A stretch of DNA of 20,000 nt. It comes from Ancylonema sp. (taxonomy: Eukaryota). The stretch's first letter is position 1. The number at the start of each line of letters is the position of its first letter. Positions 1 to 20,000 of the stretch are shown in pieces. The notes under the pieces are model-generated. The model saw only the letters and a list, made by a program, of their open reading frames with translations. It was not told where the DNA came from and searched no databases. Made by a program: the position numbers and the translations under genes. The stretch covers positions 49,893 through 69,892 of the forward strand of contig JBFLGF010000214.1 in the NCBI GenBank assembly GCA_050230475.1. Reading direction: 5' to 3'.

Positions 1-24
1 CCAGCTGTCCGCCATCTCCATATG
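1..24 (+). CDS. MATE/DTX transporter, internal exon (partial, continues upstream of window)
   Basis: Frame from 2 reads QLSAISI + TG, then a GT donor at 25. Splicing to 155 gives SAISICVNT, matching the plant DTX S-x-S-I-C-x-N-T motif. Confidence 0.75.
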
Positions 25-154
25 GTACCCTACCTCCCCCCCCCCCATGCCCCCCGCCCCCCCTCCTCCCCTCCACCCCCCCCCCTCCCCCTCCCTCACA
101 CAGTACCCAACCCCTTCTCCCCCCCCCCCCCCACCCCCTCGCCCCCCCCCAAAG

Positions 155-656
155 CGTGAACACGGGCTATTTCGCCTTCATGCCCGCCTACGGTTTCTCC
201 GCCGCTGTCAGCACCCGGGTATCCAATGAGTTGGGGGCGGGGCGTCCAGCTGGCGCCAGGGGTGCGATAACCGTATCCCTCGCCCTCGCTTTCTCCAACG
301 GCCTCCTCATGCTGGCAGCCATTATGGCGGGGAAGCGGCCGTGGGCCCTCCTCTTCACCTCAGACGCTTCGGTGCTGGAGCTGCTGAGTCAGATTCTGCC
401 CATAGTGGCAGTGAGCTGTGCCCTGGACGGGGGTGGGGGGGTGCTCTCGGGGATTGTGAGGGGATGCGGGAGGCAGCGGTTGGGGGCGGTGGCCAACCTG
501 GTGGCCTACGACGGGATCGGGGTTGGGTCTGCGGTTGTTCTGGCCTTCGTTTTCCACCTGCAGGCCAAGGGGCTGTGGTTGGGGACCAGTCTAGGGGTGG
601 TTGCGCAAGCCTCTATTCTGGGGATATTAGTGGGGCTCACAAATTGGGATGAACAG
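155..656 (+). CDS. MATE (multidrug and toxic compound extrusion / DTX) efflux transporter, exon encoding the C-terminal MatE repeat
   Basis: Plant MATE signatures GFSAAVSTRVSNELGAG, VLSGIVRGCGRQRLGAVANLVAY, GLWLG and TNWDEQ. AG acceptor at 153-154; CAG|GTAAGA donor after 656. Confidence 0.93.
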
Positions 657-795
657 GTAAGAAGGGGGGGGGGCGTTGGGGGGGGGTTGGGTATGGGGGG
701 GTGGTTTTGGGGCAATTTGAGAAGGGGGTGGGTTGTCTTACATTGGGTCTGGATTGGGTAAGAAATGTTTTTTTGGGGTCTGACATTTTTCGCAG

Positions 796-2958: not shown

Positions 2959-4077
2959 CAGTGCTCCCTCGATATAAAGACAAAAAAAAACCAATAAAGT
3001 GTCGTTATATCGAGGTGTCATTATACACTGTATAACGACATTTACTACTAGAATCTGAAATCTCTGTCCTTGTATCGAGGGACTTTGCGAATGAAACAAA
3101 GTGAATAAGCAAATGTGTTTATTATGTGTTTCCTAGAGTAAGTTGCCTCGGCATGATTTTCCAATTCAGCGTGTGTGTTGATATACGAGCTACACAAGTG
3201 CGTCATGATACCAATACATGCGGATCATAGTTGCGTCCCGGACCGTCCAGGGATCTCCGGACGCGTCCGGAACGCGTCCAGACCCGGACGTGTCCCGGAC
3301 GTGTCCCGGACCCAGACGCCAGAGCCAAAATTTGATATTCATATATTTGGAACCCCGATATTCGTGTAACTTCAGGTTGAAAACTTTTTTCTTTTTTTTT
3401 GCATCATAGTTGCGTCCCGGACCGTCCGGGGATCCCCTGACGCGTCCGGGACGCGTCCTGGGCCGGGCGTGTCCCGACCGCGTCCGGCATCCTCGCGTCC
3501 GGGACGCAACTATGATGCGGATGGACAAAATATACTACAACACTTTACGAGGAGAGATGGGGAGGTATTAAGGTTGTTACAAAGCAACACCGGACACGCA
3601 CATTCTGTTGGACATGAAGTAAAAGCAGCGGAAGGTTGGAACAATGAACAACATGGACATTTTTTTACAAGTGGTAACGTTAACATTGAATGAGTGTAAC
3701 TTGTGAGTGCTTCCCAACCCAAGAGGAACTACTACTACATATACACGAGCTTAGTTCTGGACCATCCGAGGAGGACAGAGGCGGCGTTCTCCATGACATG
3801 TGGAACAACTCGAACACGTTGTAGAGAATCTGAGGTGTCGTTCATGAGGTTTCTAGATTTTTCTCGATTACCATACATCGTTATCTGCGAGCACTAGCGT
3901 TATATACACAGTATAACGACATTCAGTAACAAATTTCTGAAATAATTTATAATTATATAGAGTGTTGTTATGCTTATATCGAGGGCAATTTCATATTGAT
4001 TTGAAAAAAGTTCCCAAAAACTGTCGTTATATCGAGGTTGTCGTTATAAATAGGGTCGTTATATCGAGGGAGCACTG
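2959..4077. mobile_element. Non-autonomous Tc1/mariner (pogo/Tigger-like) element
   Basis: 23-bp TIRs CAGTGCTCCCTCGATATAAAGAC / GTCGTTATATCGAGGGAGCACTG (1 mismatch). TA on the left flank, TTA on the right. Internal TIR-derived repeats GTCGTTATATCGAGG at 3001 and 4023. No transposase ORF recognised. Confidence 0.85.
3226..3514. mobile_element. hAT-type MITE, family A, copy 1 (inserted in the Tc1/mariner element)
   Basis: Perfect 18-bp TIR CATAGTTGCGTCCCGGAC. Perfect 8-bp TSD ATGCGGAT at 3218-3225 and 3515-3522. Confidence 0.93.
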
Positions 4078-4403
4078 TTATTGCGGTCTCGGACCCCCCA
4101 GCCACACAAAAATGAGTGGTGGGCGCAAGTCTGGTGATGGGACGCCCCCGTGAATATCCCCGTGGGAAGGGGCCACCGTTCCCCCACAAGAGACCCCCTC
4201 CTCTAGGTGGGCGGTTTTTTTGGACAAACTGAAACGGCGTGGGGTTGGCGGGGCTAGTCGGGGCTCGGTGAGGCATCTAAGCATAGTTGGCCCCGTCCCG
4301 GGCGGAAAGCGGGGCTTAGTCCGGAGCGGGCCCGCCCGAGTTGGAAAGCGGGGCGAAATTTGTGGGGCGGAGCCATAGGTCTAATTACCATTCAAAAGAA
4401 AAA

Positions 4404-5820
4404 GGGAGAGACTTCGGGCACCCCCAAAAGCGACTGCGGGCACCCCCCTCCAACAACTCAAAGTCTCTCACTTTTTTTACTCCACACTGATCGGGAAAAA
4501 AAAAGAAAAAAAAAATGCTAACATCAACCACATAGTCCCCTTTGCCATGCCGAGAAAAAAATATTTTGAATATCGCAAATCGTTTGTCTATGATTTTTTG
4601 AACTTGGCTATTGTTAAGGGAGAGACAGCGGGGCACCGGGAGGGGGGTGCCCGCATTCGCTTTGGAGGGTGCCCGCAGTCTCTCCCATAGTTGCACGGAC
4701 CGGCGGACCGGGGTCCCGAGGTCCCGACTCCGGACCGAGGTCCGTCCTTTTGGGTCAAAAATCCGGACCGGCTGTTTAGGGTAATATCCGTTTTTTGGGG
4801 GTTTTAAGGTGGTTTCCGTGGAGAAAAAACTCCGGAAGTATTTTTTTCGCGAATAAAATTATATTTAACATCTTATAAAAATGTAAAAAAAATGTTAGGC
4901 CTATCAAATAAGTAATTAAAACCTGCAATGCATCATTGTAGATAGAGTTTTTCACCACTTTCGAAATACATCACTTGGGAAAATGCAAGAGTCAATTTGG
5001 AATGGTTATAAGTATTCCATATTCTTTCATTTTCCATACGTTACAATGTAACTCTGAAATGATACTCATGTGAGGCTCAAAAAAATGTGATGAAGGGTCA
5101 CCGTCTCATGAAATAAAGTAAAATTAGAAACACCTTATCAAACATTATCCTGATTTTGTTTTCCACGCTCAAAACCTTGTACTCAAACTTCTCTCCACCT
5201 TAAAAACAAATTTCTAACTTCTCACTTTCCTATTCTACATAAATGAATGGGTAACTTCCCTATTTGTAATTTACTGACCTTCTCAAAATCTATCCTTCCC
5301 TATAACTCCATATTTATATGAAACGGGAAAAAAAAACATTACGACCTCTACACCCGTAATGTTTGTTTTATTTTCACACCCATAACACTCTTCACTGTTT
5401 ACAACACCTTAAATAACCCCCCTCTCCCCACTTCCCACTCCTCACTTGTCACTCCCCAAAAATCTTTCCTCACTCCGAATAACACACTTCCAAGTACCAA
5501 CTTACACCAAAATTTAAGCCATTTTGTCAATTTTAAATTGCACCATCTCAATCAATGGACGGTTGAATATGAACATGCTATTTTATTTTAGTTATTATTC
5601 TAATTTGCTACAACTTTGCAAGCCACAAATGACAGAGTTATATCACACGTGTGAGGTACAGGAAAAAAATTGAAGCCCCAAGTCCTTTTTCCCCGCGGAA
5701 AAGTTGCCTGACAAAAAAACCCTAAAAGTTCCCCGGTCCGACCGGGTCCCGACTCGGGACCCGGTCCGACCGCGGTCCGAAAATCCGATGTTGCCGGTCC
5801 GTGCAACTATGGTCTCTCCC
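4404..5820. mobile_element. MULE-like MITE (about 280 bp once the hAT insertion in its right TIR is removed)
   Basis: TIR GGGAGAGACTTCGGGCACCC against the reconstructed right end GGGTGCCCGCAGTCTCTCCC. Flanks CAAAAGAAAAA (4393-4403) and CAAAAAAAAAA (5821-5831) fit a long A-rich TSD. Superfamily assignment is inference. Confidence 0.7.
4686..5811. mobile_element. Non-autonomous hAT element, family B (innermost layer of the nest)
   Basis: Perfect 19-bp TIR CATAGTTGCACGGACCGGC. Perfect 8-bp TSD GTCTCTCC at 4678-4685 and 5812-5819. GGACCG/CGGTCC subterminal repeats and an AT-rich non-coding interior. Confidence 0.93.
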
Positions 5821-5991: not shown

Positions 5992-6474
5992 AGCCTTGAG
6001 AAATCCAAAAGAATATAACACGAGTAAAGATGGCAGGCGTTCTTTGTGTTATACAATCTTGAATACTGGTCGGATTTTATTTCTTAAAAGATGTACATGA
6101 ACTACGTAGTATTGGGATCCTTTATCCAAAGAACCTCAAAATCCTTCGTGGCTCACTGCCGGACGGAAATCGGGGCGGAATTTGCGGGGCGGAGCCAACT
6201 ATGCATCTAAGGGCTTGGGCGCCCCCCAGCGCCAAGGGGATTGGGGCAAATGTCCTCATGAGCTCATGAGCGCAGATCCATGCGGTCCTGCCGACAGAAC
6301 AATCTGCAATCTGAAGGCAGCCGGGAAGAGCTCCCAACGACCGCTCAAAGATTCATGTCAAAGCCTGCGGCTCATGGCAAAGCACACATGTTCACCGTGA
6401 TCGGTCAGAACAGGTGATTATCCTGAGAGAGGCCCCCCATTCTCTTTGGAAAGGGACTGTTGGGGTGTGTGGCT

Positions 6475-7815: not shown

Positions 7816-7976
7816 GTAAGGTGGAGTTTTTTGGTCGTGGTCTGGGAGGGTGAAGTAAAAAATCGATGCACAGTTACGCGTAACCCCAGCTCATTCCTGC
7901 ATACTCGATCGTTCTAACATGCAAAACAGAGCCGGCTTATCTTGCCCCTCAACCGAAGTACCTTTCTTTTATGCAG

Positions 7977-9114
7977 CTCCAGTGATGCAAGCAAGCAGCT
8001 CGGGTCTCCCTCTGCCACAGACTCGCAAGAGAGCCTGGACGCTGCGATGGAGAAACTACACCTGACGTACTTGATGTGGGACTGCGGTTATGAGGAAGGC
8101 TGCCCATGGGTCAGTAAACTCAATGACAGCAGACCAGAAGTACTGGACGATAAACCTCAAGTGAACCTGAAGTGTGGTCGGTGTCTTCAAGTCAAGCACT
8201 GCTCGAAAGAGTGCCAGAAGGCGGATTGGCCCGAGCACAAGCTTGGCTGCAAGAAGAGTGAAATGGCACGGTCGCTTTGGGAACAGAGTCGTGTGGAACA
8301 GGTTGCTTATGAGAGGGGAGAGGCCATGCTGGAGGAGTTCGAGAGAAGTCGGCAGCAGCAGTTGGCGCGACTTCGTGAGGTGGACCGGAGGTGGGCAGCT
8401 GGCAGCATCGATGAGGAGACAAATGCGGAGCTGCTGAACACAAAGGAGGATGCGAGGATGATTTTGGACCAGCTTGCACAAGAGGTTTCATTAAAGAAGG
8501 AGGAAATGATGTGGACGCACAGAAACAAAGTGCAGCTGGAGGAGGCAAACGAGAAGCTGAAATTGACAAAGACGATCATGCGCACAGCCGCGAGGTTCAT
8601 GACCAGGCTTGTTGACATGAACAAGGAGAGGCTGGTGCTCATCGGGTTGTGGCTGTATGTGCTGCACAAGAAGAAAGGAGCCATCACAATCGAAGTGGAG
8701 TCAACGGCCGCCTTGGAAAACATCATCAAGTGGTTGGGGCAGAGACGAGGGGCATTCAAGGAGAGAGGAGAGAATGGGGGGACCAAGATGGTGCCCTCTC
8801 AGGCTGCCTCGGAGGTACTGCAGCTGCTCTTCCTAGGGGAGAAGGTGAAGGGTGTAAAGAAGCTGGCATACTTGACCCTTCCAGAAACGAAGTCCAAAAT
8901 CAAGGCCATGGAGAGGGCTTTCTCCGCCGTAAGCCCTACTGTCGTAGCAATGCAGGAACTTCAGTCGTGGAAAGATCTTGCGGATGACATGCAAGCATAT
9001 GACGAGCGCTGTAGTGTAATTATCCATATATCTCTTCTAGTTGAGGAAGTGAAAGATTATGATAACCAGCCGTTGCTTCTCTTGAAATGGTTGGAGTATT
9101 GCCCTAGCGGTTGA
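7977..9114 (+). CDS. MYND-type zinc finger protein, large terminal exon
   Basis: CGYEEGC...LKCGRCLQVKHCSKECQKADWPEHKLGC matches the zf-MYND pattern and is followed by an E/K/R-rich coiled-coil-like segment. Acceptor ttttatgcag| before 7977; TGA at 9112-9114. Confidence 0.88.
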
Positions 9115-9335
9115 GTTTCTTTTTGGGGTGTAGATTTTACCTCATTGTTTTAAGGATGGCACATAGAGTGTTGCCTCCGTGCTCGACCCAACATTTTGAC
9201 GTTCTGTAAATTATTACCCCGATTCATAATGCAAGTATGCAATACATTTTTGTGAAGCGCGGGACACATCAGCGATCATTGTGCCATACACATTAACCAC
9301 TCGACCACGAAGGCTTGTGGTGATACCATGTGGAA

Positions 9336-9614
9336 CATAGATGCGTCCCGGACCGTCCGCGGATCTCCGGACGCGTCTGGGACTCCTCCGGGCTCGGACG
9401 CATCCGGAACGCGTCCCGGACCCGGAAGCCACAACCAAAATCTGGTATCCACGTCTTGGGAACCCCCAAATTTGTGTAACTTCGGAATGTTGTTTTTTTG
9501 TGTTTTTTTTTGCATCTCAATTGCGTCCCGGACCGTGCGGGGATCTCCAGACGCGTCCGTGGCCGGCCGTGTCCCAGACGCGTCCCGAAACCTCGCGTCC
9601 GGGACGCAACTATA
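9336..9614. mobile_element. hAT-type MITE, family A, copy 2 (about 220 bp downstream of the MYND stop)
   Basis: TIR CATAGATGCGTCCCGGAC / GTCCGGGACGCAACTATA. Perfect 8-bp TSD ATGTGGAA at 9328-9335 and 9615-9622. Colinear with 3226-3514. Confidence 0.92.
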
Positions 9615-10100
9615 ATGTGGAACTTATCGGCACTCGATTAGACAGTGGTCACATTTTCATTTTCATTTTCAGTGGCACTCACAACAGGCACATTGGCGAT
9701 GATCTCAAATGATTTGAAACCTATCCGTTGATAGTCAATAACCTCTTTGAATGTATACATCCGACAATATTATTTTATTTTGTTTTTGTTTTTTTCGGAC
9801 CAAGTTGCTCGCACCATGCGTGGTTCTTCTCGTACACAATCCCTGATGTATGAACAAGGTAAAATGCTCAAAATTACCCGAATAAATTTGAAATCCCTAG
9901 AAAATAGATTGTTTTATGCATAAAATTGAATAAATTGTTCGGCATGCAACCTTATATTTGAAAACCACGAGAACATGCACATATACTAAGAAAACGCACA
10001 AAGAATGAACACCATATTTGGTTCTTCCGTCCACGTACTAAATGTGTTGGGAATGCGTCTTCTTTTTTTTTACCATTGAAAATTACAATCTGTAATGGCC

Positions 10101-14244: not shown

Positions 14245-14253
14245 TTTTAGCAA

Positions 14254-14692
14254 TGTTACGTGATATGTGCAAGATCGTGTGAATCTTTCCGTACAAGGAA
14301 CATCGTCTCTCATAGATGATCAATGACAAGTATTGTGTTGGAAGAATTATTAGTGAATGGTCGGCATCGTGTAGGTATACCACGATGCCTCGTCCAAAAC
14401 AAGAATCTACAATGCCGACGGTCTATCTGCGGACCGTCGGCCTATCATAACACAACAACAGTCAGATCTGACAACGGCACATGCCGGACAGTCTGACAAG
14501 ACATAACGTCTAGATTCGGAACCATCTAGACCCGCACGTGCCACAAACGGCACAATCGAAACGTCATATGCGTGTGCCCGGACATAATTCCGGCCCCTCA
14601 ATATAAGCACACCCTAGGAATCCTACCGGTTACACTAACCGGTAGTCCGGACTAGCACACTAGCAAACATCGCTATCCGATATAATTCTACA
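14254..14692 (-). repeat. Putative 5' LTR of the copia element
   Basis: Minus strand starts TGTAGAATT exactly where the gypsy coding sequence breaks and ends ...CGTAACA shortly before the PBS-like motif. TATA-like CTTATATTGA near 14600. The inner boundary is uncertain by about 10 bp, with no second LTR to confirm it. Confidence 0.65.
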
Positions 14693-14693
14693 C

Positions 14694-14795
14694 TAGATCC
14701 TCCATGCTGTAGGCAAAGCGATCATTGTTCTCCCTCAGCAGCTCCAACATCAGCAGCTGGTCCCTCTCCATTAACCCCCCCCTAACCTTGATTTT
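14694..14795 (-). pseudogene. Gypsy-type segment immediately N-terminal to reverse transcriptase
   Basis: My translation KIKVRGGLMERDQLLMLELLRENNDRFAYSMEDL fits the L-x-x-L-L-x-x-x-x-D-x-F-A-x-S-x-x-D-L(G) motif preceding gypsy RT. It is cut off by the copia LTR. Confidence 0.72.
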
Positions 14796-14919
14796 CTTAA
14801 GATTCTCACAAAAAAACAGGTATTGGGTTTAAGGTCCCACCCTTAGTGCTCACTCCTACCCCTGAGTGCTCTCTACCATTCCCCCCAAACTTCCCCTATA
14901 AATCATTTTCTGCCTGCAT

Positions 14920-15236
14920 CCCCGGCTGTTGCTCTGGCATTCCCAGCCAGCCCCCACTATATCAACCTCCCCGTTCTGAGCAATCAGGTTCACGAGTGCC
15001 ATTTCGCCAATCAGCCCCACATCCTGTGGCAACCGATTCTCCCAACCAATGAATGCTCCCGTGTTGATCTGGCCCGGGTACTCAAGGATCAGCTTCCCGA
15101 TCACCCTCTCGTTGATCCGGTTGGAAATAGGGTCCCTCTCGGCGCACGACACCAGCCGCACCCTCAATTCTGCCGCCAAGGCTGCTCTAGTGCCCCCTAG
15201 ACCGATGCCACTGAAAAGCTCGACAATATGCGCTCC
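14920..15236 (-). pseudogene. C5 cytosine DNA methyltransferase domain, N-terminal half (within ORF 14856-15779)
   Basis: Motif I HIVELFSGIG (15201-15230), motif II CAERDP, motif III LPQDV and motif IV VDIVGAGWECQS (GWECQ at 14934-14948), in the correct order. Motifs VI-X not found. Confidence 0.85.
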
Positions 15237-16229
15237 CTCTTCGGCTGCCTCCTCCCTCAGGTTCACGACCCGGGTGTTGATCGGGGCTGCACCCCTCACT
15301 CGTGCCCCCACCCACTTCCGGGACCTCCTTGTTCTGGCCTTTCCCAACAACCTCTCCTTCGCCTTCAGCAGCCTCAAAGTTGCAACCGCTCGCCGTGCTG
15401 CATCCGCCTGCTGCATTGCTACAACGCGCAAATCTAACTCACTAGGCTCACCAGTCAGCTCCCCCAACCGTGGTTGGGGCTGGCTTTGCCGTGCGCTTTT
15501 CACAGCTACCCCACCCACCATTACCCTAAGGTCAGGTTGCACCACACTCGTGTGCTTCCCCCAGAGCTGAATCTCCCCCTCTACCCCCGTTCCCAGCATC
15601 TCCTGCGGTTGGGGCCCCAGCCGCGGTTGGCCCCCCTTCCCTTGGGCTATCTCCCAGTTGTGTAACCGCCATGCCCTCAAATTTCTCCCAGGCTTCCCCA
15701 TTACCCCCTCCATACCCCTCCTCAACCCACCCCGGACTTTTCCCACCCATCTTCTCCTCAAGCAAGAGGTTGGCCTCATCGAGTGCCACCCCTCGAGCTA
15801 TCTCCCCATCCACATCCCACCCCCGGGCTCCTTGCTCCTCCATGTGCTGCAGCAGAGTGAGCAGTGCCAAATTTTACACTTCCCCACCACCCCCTCACTC
15901 TCACCCCCCCCCATATCCCCCTCGTCCACCTCCTCCCACTCATAGGAAGTATCACTTTCCGCATCCTCACCATCTGAGTTGTAGCTTTCCGCATCCTCAA
16001 ACTGGCCCTCCTCAGCATCTGAGGTGTAGAGGTCAGATTGCATCTGCACCTCTCCCGTCCACTCCCTGTGCATCCTCCCCAACGCCATTTCCTGCATAAG
16101 CAGTGTCACGCGCACTACCGTGCACTCCTCCTGTGTCATCCTCCCTTGAGCAGGCAAAACCCCTCTAATCTTGCCCTGATCGATGGTAGTCCACCCTCCA
16201 AGTGAACACCTCTACCCATGAGTCATACA

Positions 16230-16530
16230 CCCCCCCAATAGGACCCATCACCTCCATCCCCAATAACACATCATAATACTCCGTGTCCACCACAAATGCC
16301 GTCTCCTCATACGTGGTTTCATAATGTGCCTCTAGGAGCCAGTGTAAAACTCAACTTGTCCCTAGTCATGCGCTGCCCCGTTGACATTTTCCCCGCTGCC
16401 GTGACGAACGAAACCCCCACCGTCACCTGCTCCTACGTTATCCCCATGCGCCTGGCCATCCGAGTGCTGATCATGGGTTTAGTGCCCCCCGAATCCAGGA
16501 TCACCATGCCCATTGGAGTGACGCCGTTCA
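16230..16530 (-). pseudogene. Retroviral-type aspartic protease of the gypsy-like element
   Basis: Active site VILDSGGTKPMIS, flap FVTAAG and frameshifted C-terminal motif YDVLLGME. Internal TAG at 16433. Confidence 0.85.
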
Positions 16531-17983
16531 CCACCAACTCCCTGTTTTTGACCGGAAGTGTCGCCACACCCCAGGGACCCTTCTTCCCCCCCCCTCCTAC
16601 CCAGCCAGCGTGTGGTGGATCTCCCTCCACTAACGACCTCAACCCCCCGTACTGGTCCATGTTTTTCTCCAGGACTTCAGCACGTGAAAGTTTCTCTCAA
16701 GGTTTTTGAACTTTTCTGCCAATAGGTTTGCTAGAAACTCCCCTTCCGGCCCCAAACCTTTCCCCATAACCTCGATCATATTTCCCTGGTCTATATATGT
16801 TCCTGATTCAGCCAGCTTTTTTATTTCCCTTATCACCTCCAGCCGGCCCGTCATGATTGGCGGAGTTTCTGCAAGTTTCCCGTCAAGATACTTGCTAGAT
16901 GCCTGTAGTTTCACCAACCTTTCCCTCTCCTTTGCATTGTGCACCACCTCCTGAATCCCCTCCTCCGCCACCTCTATGGAAACTGGCTCCCGGCCGTCTC
17001 TCCCGTACTCAACCCGTCAATCATAAGACCCAAATTGTAGATATGCTGCCTCCTGCAATGCCCTCCCCGCTGCAGTGTCCATTCCTGGAGGGTATCCTAT
17101 AGGCACCCTCAGAGTCCCACTCTCCCCAACAAACACAACTCGCGCACCTGACTCCATTGTTGATGGAGGGGTTGTCACACCCGTGACACTCATCCCCGGT
17201 CGAACCTGAACGGCTGGCCCTTTGTCGGCCCTCTCCGACGGATACAGAATGTCACGTGGCTGTGTGTTGTGCGCGAAGATCACCCTCCTAGGCTTCCCCG
17301 GATCCCTCTTCTCTGCAGCCGTTGCTTTTGCCGCAAGAACCCATGTTGCTTGCACTCCCCTCACCACTGCCTCCTCATGCTCCAAACGCTGTCCCACGTT
17401 CTGGATCACCCGCCTCAAATCATCCGCCCCCGGCGATCTTTGCCGGGGCCCTCCTTGAGTTGGCCCCATACCCTGAGGTCCCAGCCTGCCTGCTAGGCTG
17501 CTACCCTCTCCCCTCTCCATGCTCCGTAGCCTCTCGGAAGCTCGCAGTGGTCCAACAGTCCCTCCTCCAGATCGCCCTCCTCGAGCGCGTGGCGCCATCA
17601 TCTGAAATGGGGTCCTCACGTGCACCACTGGCACCTCCATGGCGACCCACACCTTTCCCACATAGAACCCCAGTTCCACTCCGTGAGCGTCACCCTCCTT
17701 ACCCACTCCCATCGCCATCATCTGGCGTGGGTAACCAGGGCTGAAGAACTCCTCATCTCCTCGCCCCAGCCTTAACTCAAACTCAGCACCCCTCCTCGCT
17801 GGTAGCCCTGGCACCGCCATTGCCAGCCCCTGTCGTGGGTGCTTAGCCGCAGGTGCTCCTCCCCCTGGGTTGTAGTTCTTTGGACGAAGCGCAGGGTGCT
17901 TCGCCCAACACTGAGCCTCAGTGTGGTTTTACTTATCGGAAAAGCTGCAGGGTGCCCCCTCCGTCATGTGGACCCGTGGCATG

Positions 17984-18784
17984 CAGGGATGCACCGGGAC
18001 GACAAAATAGTCTGCACACGCCGTTTTGCAAACGCGGACGTACGGAATACGTCCGTACGGCAAAAGTGTTGCAAACGTTTGCAAAACGTTTGCATTTTGC
18101 TAACGTTTTGCAAACGTTTGCATTTTGCAAACGTCCGCAAATTATTCCTAGAAAGGCCCGTTCCCGGCTAAACCGTAAACCTATTATATCCGGCGGACTC
18201 TCTATTTTGTCGTACCCCCAGTTTGTCCCCGTCAGTTTGTTGTATCCCCGTTTATGTCATCATTACATTTCCTCCGTGTTTTCCGTGTCCCCGTCGTTTT
18301 ATCCTGTAGCACGTCCCTATTTTATCGTACCTTCCGTTCCACAATCGTATCTTGGCCCGTAGCCCGTCTCCCGTTCCATCATAGATTATGTTTGTCGTGT
18401 GTGAGAAAGAATATTTCATCTTTCTGAGATATCTAGCATCTGACGGTTGAGCGTCGTTCACGACGTTGTCCCATCCCCCGATGCCGTCCAAATCCCCTGT
18501 TGTCAGTAGATTCTGTACACATTCACGTTCGAATCTACCTGTTAAAAAAAAAATCCGGAGTCATTAGTACAGACATGTACGGACTGTACGGACGCAAACG
18601 TTTGCAAGCGCAAACGTTTGCATCCGTACAATCCGTACCCGTTTGCCGCATTTCCACGACCGTATTCCGGACCTTTGCGGGCAAATCCGTACGCCGTTTG
18701 CATTTGCCAGGGCCGGCAGATTGCCCTCGGCCCCGTCCGGAAGACGTGCCGTACAGAAAACGGGCCCCGGCCCGGTGCATCATG
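17984..18784. mobile_element. Non-autonomous hAT element inserted in the gypsy gag region
   Basis: Imperfect TIR CAGGGATGCACCGGG / CCCGGTGCATCATG. 8-bp TSD GTGGCATG (17976-17983) / GTAGCATG (18785-18792). Subterminal GCAAACGTTTGC and CCGTAC arrays. Confidence 0.85.
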
Positions 18785-18841: not shown

Positions 18842-19576
18842 TCAAACTGCGGCGAAGGGTCCTACTGTTGTGGTCTTAAGTGCTTCCCTTAGCCTCCCAA
18901 CCGTCTCCTCCCGCTTCCCAGTGGGACACTTCGTAGCTCTGTGCCCCAGCCCGTCACAAGTGAAGCACTTGATGGGGGTTCCCCCCCCCATCCCTCCTCC
19001 CCCAGTCCCAGCCCCTCCTCCCCCTCCATTCCCAGCCATTCCTCCCCCTCCATTCCCAGATCTTCCCCCGCCTCCACCTTCTCTCAGCTTCCCCTTCCCC
19101 TCCTCCCTTCTCCCCTCCTCCTTCGTCTCCTCCTTCTGACTTGGCAATACGCCAAACATCCGCAGCTCCGCATCCCGCGACATCTGCACTCTCTCCTCAG
19201 ATGTGGCAATGTCCCTGACATCTGCCATGCTCATCTTTGGGAGGCCTTCTCCATCCCGTCGCTGCTCCTCAGCCCTCAGCTTCGGGATGATCACCCGCTT
19301 GAGCCCTCCGGGAAGACAGTCCTCATAGAAACAGGTTGTCTGCCACGCACTGACCATATGCGGCACCAAATTGATGGTGATCCTCGAGAGATTATCATAG
19401 ATGGAGTTGGCGGTCGCCTCTGGTGTGGGCTTGTAGTTTTGTAATTCCACAAGCCACCTAGACCCAGCAGTGGCGAACCTGGTCTTCAGCTTCTGGAAGA
19501 ATCCCTCCAAATCAGCGGGTTTTGCCTGCAGGGGTGCAGCTGGTGGCCCCAGAAGTTCAGAGGTCAGCCGCATCAA
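18842..19576 (-). pseudogene. Gag (capsid-like region, Gly-rich linker and CCHC knuckle) of the gypsy-like element
   Basis: 244-aa ORF with LEGFFQKLKTRF...LQNYK, a Gly-rich stretch and CFTCDGLGHRATKC at 18926-18967. Confidence 0.8.
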
Positions 19577-20000
19577 CTGCCAGTTGGCCTTTTGCCCATA
19601 GTATAACCGGCTGCTAAAGGTATCGGGGCAGGATCTGGGGCTTGGTACAAAACGAGCTGAAGATCTGGCAGTCCAACCACGCCCTGTGAATCAACAAACT
19701 CTTGTAGCCCTGCTAATCGTGACCACGATCACGATCTATCGCGCGCGGAAGCACTACTAGAGTCGTCGCCACCACTTCCCCCTACGCTTGCTTATCTTCG
19801 AACCAAACGTTGATTCCGATCACGAGACCAGCCAGACATGAACGTCCTGACTTAGGTTAGTCCGAAAACTACCTCCTTGGGTTATCAGAACTAAACTACG
19901 CGCTGAAAATCTTGCTCAAAATCCGATTTTGACAGTTTTGCTAGCGTAGCATTACGCCAGAGTAAAATTACTGCGCAAGATATCTAACGCTGTCTCTAGA

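What the first reader, a model, noticed from the sequence alone, without database searches (positions are those of the whole stretch)
14920..15236. LTR retrotransposon with its own cytosine DNA methyltransferase between protease and RT
Seen: C5-MTase motifs I-IV (ELFSGIG, ERD, PQDV, DIVGAGWECQ) lie on the same strand as, and between, a retropepsin (16230-16530) and a gypsy pre-RT motif (14694-14795), with no introns evident. Known: DNMTs captured by retrotransposons were reported in charophytes and dinoflagellates (de Mendoza et al. 2018, Nat Commun), with self-methylation of retrotranscribed DNA proposed. Inference: this is such a system, with the MTase made as part of Pol and possibly packaged with RT. 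The class is not new, but this family, host and EC (rather than PC) catalytic motif may be undescribed.
Basis: partly seen in the sequence, partly recalled or inferred. Interest (0 to 1): 0.88.

Follow-up and report, generated by a model that had tools for sequence, protein, structure and literature searches.

The report
Dead retrotransposon with half a DNMT3
This is a broken copy of a multi-copy jumping gene whose family carries a DNMT3-like DNA-methylating enzyme next to its protease; the family likely makes the enzyme along with its shell protein and would use it to mark its own new DNA copies, and elements of this kind were already described in the alga Klebsormidium.

Summary
The motifs are real, and the domain is a DNMT3-like C5-methyltransferase in a Ty3/Gypsy element, between protease and the pre-RT motif. 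This copy is dead: about 290-300 codons (motifs VI-X) are deleted at 14909/14910, a Copia element sits where RT should begin, and gag-protease carry stops, frameshifts and a MITE. It is not a one-off capture. Other copies continue into the missing half and into RT, family variants are mostly synonymous (20 of 26 listed), and whole relatives read Gag-PR-DNMT-RT-RH-IN-PHD, the order of Klebsormidium nitens GAQ87975.1, whose RT groups with theirs. Two first-reader points change. EC is not peculiar to this family: it is the commonest form among the hits and goes with intact catalytic residues. The enzyme probably ends a Gag-protease ORF rather than running on into RT. Activity, terminal repeats and host were not established. 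The scan has noted this kind of element many times on other DNA. Verdict: new member of a known kind.

The parts
18842..19690 (-). Gag of the Gypsy element, with first zinc knuckle
   Evidence: zf-CCHC E 4.5e-4; tblastn to Gag of P0152, E 3e-9
17984..18784 (.). 801-bp MITE-like insertion (hAT-like by recalled criteria) that splits gag
   Evidence: imperfect terminal inverted repeats and 8-bp flanks identical at 7 of 8; contigs of all three runs skip 809 bases here
17845..17988 (-). second zinc knuckle of Gag, with an in-frame stop
   Evidence: tblastn to P0150-P0153, E 4e-4 to 1e-8
16177..16546 (-). retropepsin (LDSG), broken by one stop and a frameshift near 16324
   Evidence: weak Pfam Asp_protease_2, E 0.022; tblastn to P0150-P0154, E 1e-6 to 3e-13; frames and stops
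14910..15323 (-). N-terminal half of a DNMT3-like C5-methyltransferase: motif I 15221-15201, motif II 15140-15132, motif IV with Glu-Cys 14963-14934
14909..14910 (.). deletion junction: about 290-300 codons missing, including motifs VI-X
   Evidence: loose ends on both sides in runs X1-X3; alignment jumps from residue 1191 to 1520 of P0151 over 34 codons
14805..14909 (-). spacer before the RT frame, closed by stops in all three frames, with a G-run at about 14887-14881
   Evidence: no variant listed at these stop codons among the 40 of 76 sites shown; no unusual RNA structure, z 0.46
14694..14804 (-). Gypsy pre-RT motif, cut by the Copia insertion
   Evidence: 51-66% identity to the same motif of P0151-P0154; other copies continue past 14693-14695
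14245..14692 (-). 5' LTR of a nested Copia element (starts TG at 14692; far end approximate)
   Evidence: junction and primer-binding-site-like stretch; many loose ends and high contig depth
9952..14030 (-). decayed gag-pol of the nested Copia element, cut off in RNase H; no second LTR in the window
   Evidence: Pol_BBD, gag_pre-integrase, zf-CCHC, SH3_retrovirus; ORFs; no long direct repeat

Best explanation
This is a dead, internally deleted copy of a multi-copy Ty3/Gypsy retroelement whose family encodes a DNMT3-like cytosine methyltransferase behind its protease; intact copies likely make the enzyme as the last domain of a Gag-protease polyprotein, likely carry it into the particle, and would methylate cytosines of the newly reverse-transcribed DNA. 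Shown: identity of the domain, its place, the deletion, the multi-copy family, selection on the family's enzyme, the domain order of whole relatives (about 0.93). Inferred: a stop between the enzyme and RT in this family, so that the enzyme is made in Gag-like amounts and RT-RH-IN-PHD by a rarer recoding or splicing event (about 0.6). Inferred from de Mendoza 2018 and the kept catalytic residues: the enzyme is active and its substrate is the element's own cDNA, most likely at CG (about 0.45). The copy in the window makes no working enzyme.
For: Domain: 119 relatives; family profile hits only C5-methyltransferases in the PDB, 45 of 45; full-domain profile ranks DNMT3A 1.6e-19, DRM 2.1e-16, M.HhaI 3.5e-11, DNMT2 2.8e-7; the window fragment folds at pLDDT 80 and its best Foldseek matches are DRM/DRM2. 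Family: proteins 80-90% identical continue through motif VI (ENT) and VIII (RxR); contigs leave the window on both sides of 14909/14910 (18+11+1 and 22+9+1 contigs) and at 14693-14695. Selection: 20 of 26 listed variants in 14910-15260 are synonymous against 24% expected, p 2e-8. Lineage: window collinear with P0151/P0152, Gag-PR-DNMT-RT-RH-IN-PHD; same order in K. nitens GAQ87975.1; RTs of P0151-P0154 group with it at SH 0.99. Catalytic residues in 43 full-length EC domains: Cys IV 43, Glu VI 43, RxR 42 and 43, motif I F and G 43. Stop after the enzyme: spacer closed in three frames; TAG right after the domain in L009; P0150/P0195, P0033, P0113/P0193 end 53-58 residues after the start of motif IX.
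Against: No direct Pfam, NCBIfam or PDB-sequence hit for the window fragment. The VIA-align top match, DNMT3A Z 7.3, is tied with an unrelated Rossmann fold, Z 7.1. P0151-P0154 read from the enzyme into RT in one frame, so the stop is not universal. The family's own motifs IX-X and the sequence between them and 14909 were seen only as 30-letter loose ends, and 36 of 76 variant sites were not shown. The Pro of the Pro-Cys dipeptide is replaced, and PMC2965745 treats loss of that Pro as inactivating. The Klebsormidium enzyme did not methylate yeast DNA. The DNMT tree does not put the window's clade next to the Klebsormidium enzyme and has no host DNMT3 in it.
Confidence: 0.6

Rival explanations
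1. Same element, but the EC/ENT domain is not a working DNA methyltransferase: it is kept as a cytosine-flipping or SAM-binding module that binds the cDNA or target DNA, or acts on RNA or RNA:DNA hybrid.
For: Pro of the Pro-Cys pair replaced by Glu, and Val of motif VI by Thr in 36 of 43 full-length EC domains; loss of the Pro was read as inactivating for rice DRM3; no activity of the Klebsormidium enzyme in yeast; other notes of this scan describe dead DNMT folds in retrotransposons (unchecked).
Against: Cys, Glu, both Arg and the SAM-binding motifs are kept in 42-43 of 43 EC domains, which a pseudo-enzyme would not need; active DNMT5 has Ser-Cys; related SymbioDIRS-Dnmt3 domains methylate CG.
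Confidence: 0.2
2. The enzyme is part of a single Gag-Pol frame with RT in this family too, and the stops in the spacer are decay shared by dead copies.
For: P0151-P0154, in the same clade, are single frames; L008 keeps enzyme and pre-RT motif in one frame apart from one stop.
Against: Three stops in the RT frame and stops in both other frames within 110 bases; none is listed as variable, while other window-private changes nearby are; 12 of 14 listed variants in 14750-14871 are non-synonymous in that frame, some being decay of the window copy; an A-rich run precedes the spacer in other copies.
Confidence: 0.15
3. A one-off captured fragment of a host or bacterial methyltransferase, or a chance motif match.
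For: No library hit for the fragment alone; only motifs I-IV are present.
Against: 0 of 400 shuffles give the motif pair; family members continue into motifs VI and VIII; synonymous bias; whole relatives with the same order.
Confidence: 0.02

Closest known systems
KnitGypsy-Dnmt3 of Klebsormidium nitens (de Mendoza et al. 2018, PMC5890265; called streptophyte Gypsy-DNMT3 in bioRxiv 10.64898/2026.05.21.726589); GAQ87975.1 is taken here as a copy of it, by organism and domains
   Same: Intronless DNMT3-like domain in a Gypsy polyprotein; order PR-DNMT-RT-RH-IN-PHD; RT of the window's nearest whole relatives groups with GAQ87975.1, SH 0.99; profile-profile match probability 99.5; signs of purifying selection.
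   Different: Only 27% identical over 108 residues; Glu-Cys and ENT here, Pro-Cys and EMV there; separate DNMT subclade; this copy is dead; terminal repeats not seen.
SymbioDIRS-Dnmt3 and SymbioLINE-Dnmt of Symbiodinium (PMC5890265)
   Same: Retroelement-borne cytosine methyltransferase; SymbioDIRS-Dnmt3 is also DNMT3-like and methylates CG in yeast.
   Different: DIRS and LINE backbones, independent captures by the paper's account.
EpiLTRs of Euglena and Cymbomonas (bioRxiv 10.64898/2026.05.21.726589)
   Same: LTR retrotransposons with a DNMT.
   Different: They also carry DAM and a chromodomain, and their DNMT is sister to DNMT4, stated to be distinct from Gypsy-DNMT3.
DNMT3A/B/C and plant DRM
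   Same: Best profile and fold matches; unpermuted motif order as in DNMT3.
   Different: No PWWP, ADD or UBA seen; Glu-Cys for Pro-Cys; an insertion of about 30 residues between motifs II and III relative to DNMT3A.

Membership tests
C5-cytosine DNA methyltransferase, DNMT3 type | Motif I (FxGxG) and acidic motif II | tested here: met
   ELFSGIG and ERD in the window, aligned
C5-cytosine DNA methyltransferase, DNMT3 type | Catalytic Cys in motif IV | tested here: met
   Cys at 14939-14937, aligned to the Pro-Cys of HaeIII and DNMT3A
C5-cytosine DNA methyltransferase, DNMT3 type | Pro before the catalytic Cys | tested here: not met
   Glu in the window and in 43 of 52 full-length relatives; active DNMT5 also lacks it
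C5-cytosine DNA methyltransferase, DNMT3 type | Motifs VI, VIII, IX, X in the window copy | tested here: not met
   deleted at 14909/14910; the window copy is therefore not filed as an enzyme
C5-cytosine DNA methyltransferase, DNMT3 type | Motifs VI and VIII in the family, IX and X in the clade | tested here: met
   ENT and RxR in P0058, ENT in P0002 and P0147; IX and X only in relatives about 40% identical such as P0150-P0154
C5-cytosine DNA methyltransferase, DNMT3 type | Closer to DNMT3/DRM than to other C5 enzymes | tested here: met
   profile ranks DNMT3 and DRM 5-8 orders of magnitude above M.HhaI; no tree with host DNMT3 could be built
C5-cytosine DNA methyltransferase, DNMT3 type | Methyl transfer to DNA | not testable with these tools
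   needs an assay
Gypsy-DNMT3 (KnitGypsy-Dnmt3 kind) | Intronless DNMT3-like domain within a Ty3/Gypsy polyprotein region | tested here: met
   gag, protease, enzyme and pre-RT motif collinear on one strand
Gypsy-DNMT3 (KnitGypsy-Dnmt3 kind) | Order PR-DNMT-RT-RH-IN(-PHD) | tested here: met
   PR-DNMT-preRT in the window; full order in P0151, P0152, P0154 and GAQ87975.1
Gypsy-DNMT3 (KnitGypsy-Dnmt3 kind) | RT of the same lineage as the Klebsormidium element | tested here: inconclusive
   the window has no RT core; RTs of its nearest whole relatives group with GAQ87975.1 at SH 0.99 among 37 RTs, none from DNMT-less elements
Gypsy-DNMT3 (KnitGypsy-Dnmt3 kind) | Multi-copy, DNMT under purifying selection | tested here: met
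   1280, 509 and 114 contigs laid on 601 bases; 20 of 26 listed variants synonymous
Gypsy-DNMT3 (KnitGypsy-Dnmt3 kind) | DIRS-like split terminal repeats | not testable with these tools
   both ends lie outside the window, no genome is held, and the 7 loci examined show no self-repeat, most being partial
Canonical LTR retrotransposon | Paired LTRs, primer-binding site and target-site duplication | not testable with these tools
   not in the window for the Gypsy element; the LTR at 14692 belongs to the nested Copia

The most novel reading that the evidence does not exclude
Most green-lineage Gypsy-DNMT3 enzymes form an undescribed catalytic variant, with Glu-Cys in motif IV paired with Thr in motif VI, that is active inside the retrotransposon particle; in this family a fixed stop behind the enzyme packs it at capsid-like numbers, so that every new cDNA is methylated before it integrates. 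The same capture has two positions in Pol (PR-DNMT-RT and RH-DNMT-IN), always with a C-terminal PHD finger where the end is seen, and may reach land plants.
Probability: 0.25. Interest if true: 0.7.

Novelty: new member of a known kind. Interest (0 to 1): 0.38.

Why it matters
The copy itself is a fossil. The family matters as one more sign that Gypsy-DNMT3 elements are not a Klebsormidium oddity but a broad green-lineage group under selection. It points to natural full-length relatives (P0150-P0154) with which the open question of the 2018 paper can be tested: does a Gypsy-borne DNMT3 methylate its own cDNA? If Glu-Cys enzymes are active, the 'invariant' Pro-Cys has a second widespread exception beside DNMT5, and standard domain scans, which miss many of these domains, undercount them.

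Tried and rejected
No genome is held, so the genome-wide tblastn for full-length copies could not be run. Pfam, NCBIfam and PDB sequence searches with the fragment: nothing. Word-based protein searches with the window ORF: none at E<=0.001 among 1576 and 7996 candidates. Viral contigs: 171 pattern matches, none confirmed. First metagenome scan: 79 matches, none confirmed; second: 14 loci, 30-32% identity or short matches, none of this family. No RNA holder listed, which says nothing on expression. Rfam: no match. Spacer RNA folds no better than shuffles, so no frameshift or readthrough structure is claimed; a splice acceptor or slippery site there stays a guess. The first tree's phage outgroup split, one sequence falling on a long branch, so no root and no order of EC versus PC is claimed. 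Some hits are unrelated repeat proteins (P0045, P0103) and were not used. Contig depth was not read as copy number.

Full report
1. Observation. The four motifs lie in one minus-strand frame, 15797-14856, between a decayed retropepsin (16546-16177) and a Gypsy pre-RT motif (14804-14694). Motif I plus motif IV in one open frame arose in 0 of 400 shuffles, motif I alone in 101 of 400 (pattern written after seeing the sequence). The fragment by itself hits nothing in Pfam, NCBIfam or PDB sequences, and two word-based searches found nothing.

2. What the domain is. phmmer of 14907-15377 against 1.84 billion representatives gave 119 hits, 23 at E<=1e-10. I scanned 29 of the 119, chosen for closeness or length: 21 hit PF00145 at E<=0.001, 18 above the curated cut-off, and 2 were unrelated repeat proteins. 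A profile of the window fragment and 24 relatives hits 45 PDB sequences, all C5-methyltransferases. A full-domain profile of 18 sequences (without the window, with its family members P0147 and P0058) ranks DNMT3A 1.6e-19, DRM 2.1e-16, M.HhaI 3.5e-11, DNMT2 2.8e-7. The window fragment folds at mean pLDDT 80; Foldseek's first eight rows are DRM/DRM2 (best E 4.8e-4), and VIA-align's first row is DNMT3A at Z 7.3, tied with an unrelated Rossmann fold. A relative's model (pLDDT 62) matches DNMT3C/B/A first. The domain is DNMT3-like.

3. This copy is broken. Against the whole relatives P0151-P0154 the window skips about 290-300 codons just after motif IV. Contigs from three public runs (at most two samples) break off on both sides of 14909/14910: 18, 11 and 1 contigs go on with other letters after the enzyme half, and 22, 9 and 1 arrive with other letters before the spacer; none of the 24 listed pieces crosses the junction. 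The letters after the enzyme half agree with what proteins P0058, P0146 and P0147 (83-90% identical) have there, and P0058, P0002 and P0147 go on to motif VI (ENT), P0058 to motif VIII. So motifs VI-X were deleted in this copy. At 14692 a Copia LTR begins; other copies continue past this point. The Copia element is itself cut in RNase H near 10100, and no RT, RNase H or integrase of the Gypsy element is in the window. Gag is split by an 801-bp MITE-like insert that contigs of all three runs skip; gag and protease carry stops and frameshifts.

4. The family is real and under selection. 1280, 509 and 114 contigs lay on 14660-15260. Of the 40 of 76 variant sites shown, 26 fall in the enzyme half and 20 are synonymous, against 24% expected (p 2e-8); of 14 listed variants downstream only 2 are. 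P0151 and P0152 are single frames Gag-knuckle-PR-DNMT-RT-RH-IN-PHD, collinear with the window from Gag to the pre-RT motif. K. nitens GAQ87975.1 has PR-DNMT-RT-RH-IN-PHD (its protease is read from the sequence, Pfam does not list it). In a DNMT tree of 63 sequences the window's family sits with P0150-P0154 (SH 0.999) and apart from GAQ87975.1; in an RT tree of 37 sequences P0151-P0154 group with GAQ87975.1 and L009 (SH 0.99) apart from 31 elements of a second layout, RT-RH-DNMT-IN-PHD. Both trees are midpoint-rooted and hold no host DNMT3 and no DNMT-less RT.

5. EC for PC. Among 174 aligned domains, cluster members included, motif IV reads EC in 94, PC in 28, QC in 5, is missing in 36 and otherwise in 11; the sample leans to EC because the query is EC. 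EC occurs in Mesostigma and Closterium proteins; the Klebsormidium protein has PC. In 43 full-length EC domains the Cys, the motif VI Glu and Asn, motif I and the acidic motif II are kept in 43, the two Arg of motif VIII in 42 and 43; motif VI ends in Thr in 36 of 43 EC and in Val in 8 of 9 PC domains (kin share states, so this is no test of coupling). PMC2965745 (passages) treats loss of the Pro as inactivating; bioRxiv 10.1101/2021.10.01.462825 (passages) reports Ser-Cys in active DNMT5. I found no description of EC in these elements in searches, but the supplement with the alignment of the Klebsormidium copies could not be read.

6. How it is expressed. Between 14909 and the pre-RT motif all three frames are closed. 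These stops are not among the listed variants, though window-private changes close by are, and other copies have an A-rich run just upstream. L009 has one in-frame TAG right behind the domain; P0150/P0195, P0033 and P0113/P0193 end 53-58 residues after the start of motif IX; the gene model GAQ87975.1 departs from its close relative P0189 within motif X, as if it skipped such a stop (inference). P0151-P0154 read through. I infer that this family ends a Gag-PR-DNMT frame behind the enzyme and reaches RT by recoding or splicing. I met this reading first in earlier notes of the scan and tested it here only as described.

7. Mechanism. Shown: identity, place, deletion, family, selection. Inferred: the protease frees the enzyme in the particle, where it methylates the cDNA, as proposed in PMC5890265 (abstract, passages, sections 9-11 whole, one table). 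That paper shows CG methylation only for SymbioDIRS-Dnmt3; the Klebsormidium domain was negative, called inconclusive. Rivals: a non-methylating or non-DNA role (0.2), a single Pol frame (0.15), a one-off capture (0.02).

8. Known and new. The kind is in print: PMC5890265, named again in bioRxiv 10.64898/2026.05.21.726589 (passages; supplements closed) and PMC12344493 (passages). PMC6338049 (parts 1-2 of 4) states that such elements are absent from land plants such as tracheophytes. The host here is unidentified: a MATE gene with an intron-like 3' end and the named relatives point to a green plant or alga. Earlier unchecked notes of this scan report the same kind in mosses and liverworts on other DNA. 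Verdict: a dead copy of a new member of a known kind; the clade-wide EC/ENT site and the stop behind the enzyme are the parts worth a bench test. Interest 0.38.

Noticed in passing
P0039, P0101, P0104, P0155-P0186; L001, L002, L005: A second, large group of Gypsy elements carries the same EC-type enzyme between RNase H and integrase, also with a C-terminal PHD finger; many of these domains fall below the Pfam threshold. I found no paper on it.
   Followed up: partly
window 14887-14881; L008 about 11000; L009 about 970; P0151-P0153: A G-run (read as LGG or VGG in protein) lies between enzyme and RT in several distant members; possibly an internal polypurine tract.
   Followed up: no
window 14245-14692: The Copia LTR starts with TG but seems to end in TAAAA, not CA, followed by a stretch like the half-tRNA primer sites of algal and bryophyte Copia clades (recalled, not tested). 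Contig depth shows a far more abundant family than the Gypsy one.
   Followed up: no
window 17984-18784: MITE-like insert with 8-bp target duplication and inner AAACGTTTGC palindromic repeats.
   Followed up: partly
window 3217-3523 and 9327-9620: Two copies, 77% alike over 184 bases, of a roughly 300-bp element with terminal inverted repeats, rich in GACGCGTC/CCGG.
   Followed up: no
window 4404-4686; 4343-4375 and 6165-6197; about 4700-4860 and 5680-5815: Further inverted and dispersed repeats, probably ends of non-autonomous DNA transposons.
   Followed up: no
window 7918-9114 (+): Intronless 398-codon frame with a MYND finger (E 4.5e-10) followed by a coiled region.
   Followed up: no
window 3-761 (+): 3' part of a MATE transporter gene (E 3e-21), with long C and G runs at the exon edges.
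   Followed up: no
window 16560-17700 (-): About 350 codons between the second knuckle and the protease with no Pfam match and little similarity to the whole relatives.
   Followed up: no
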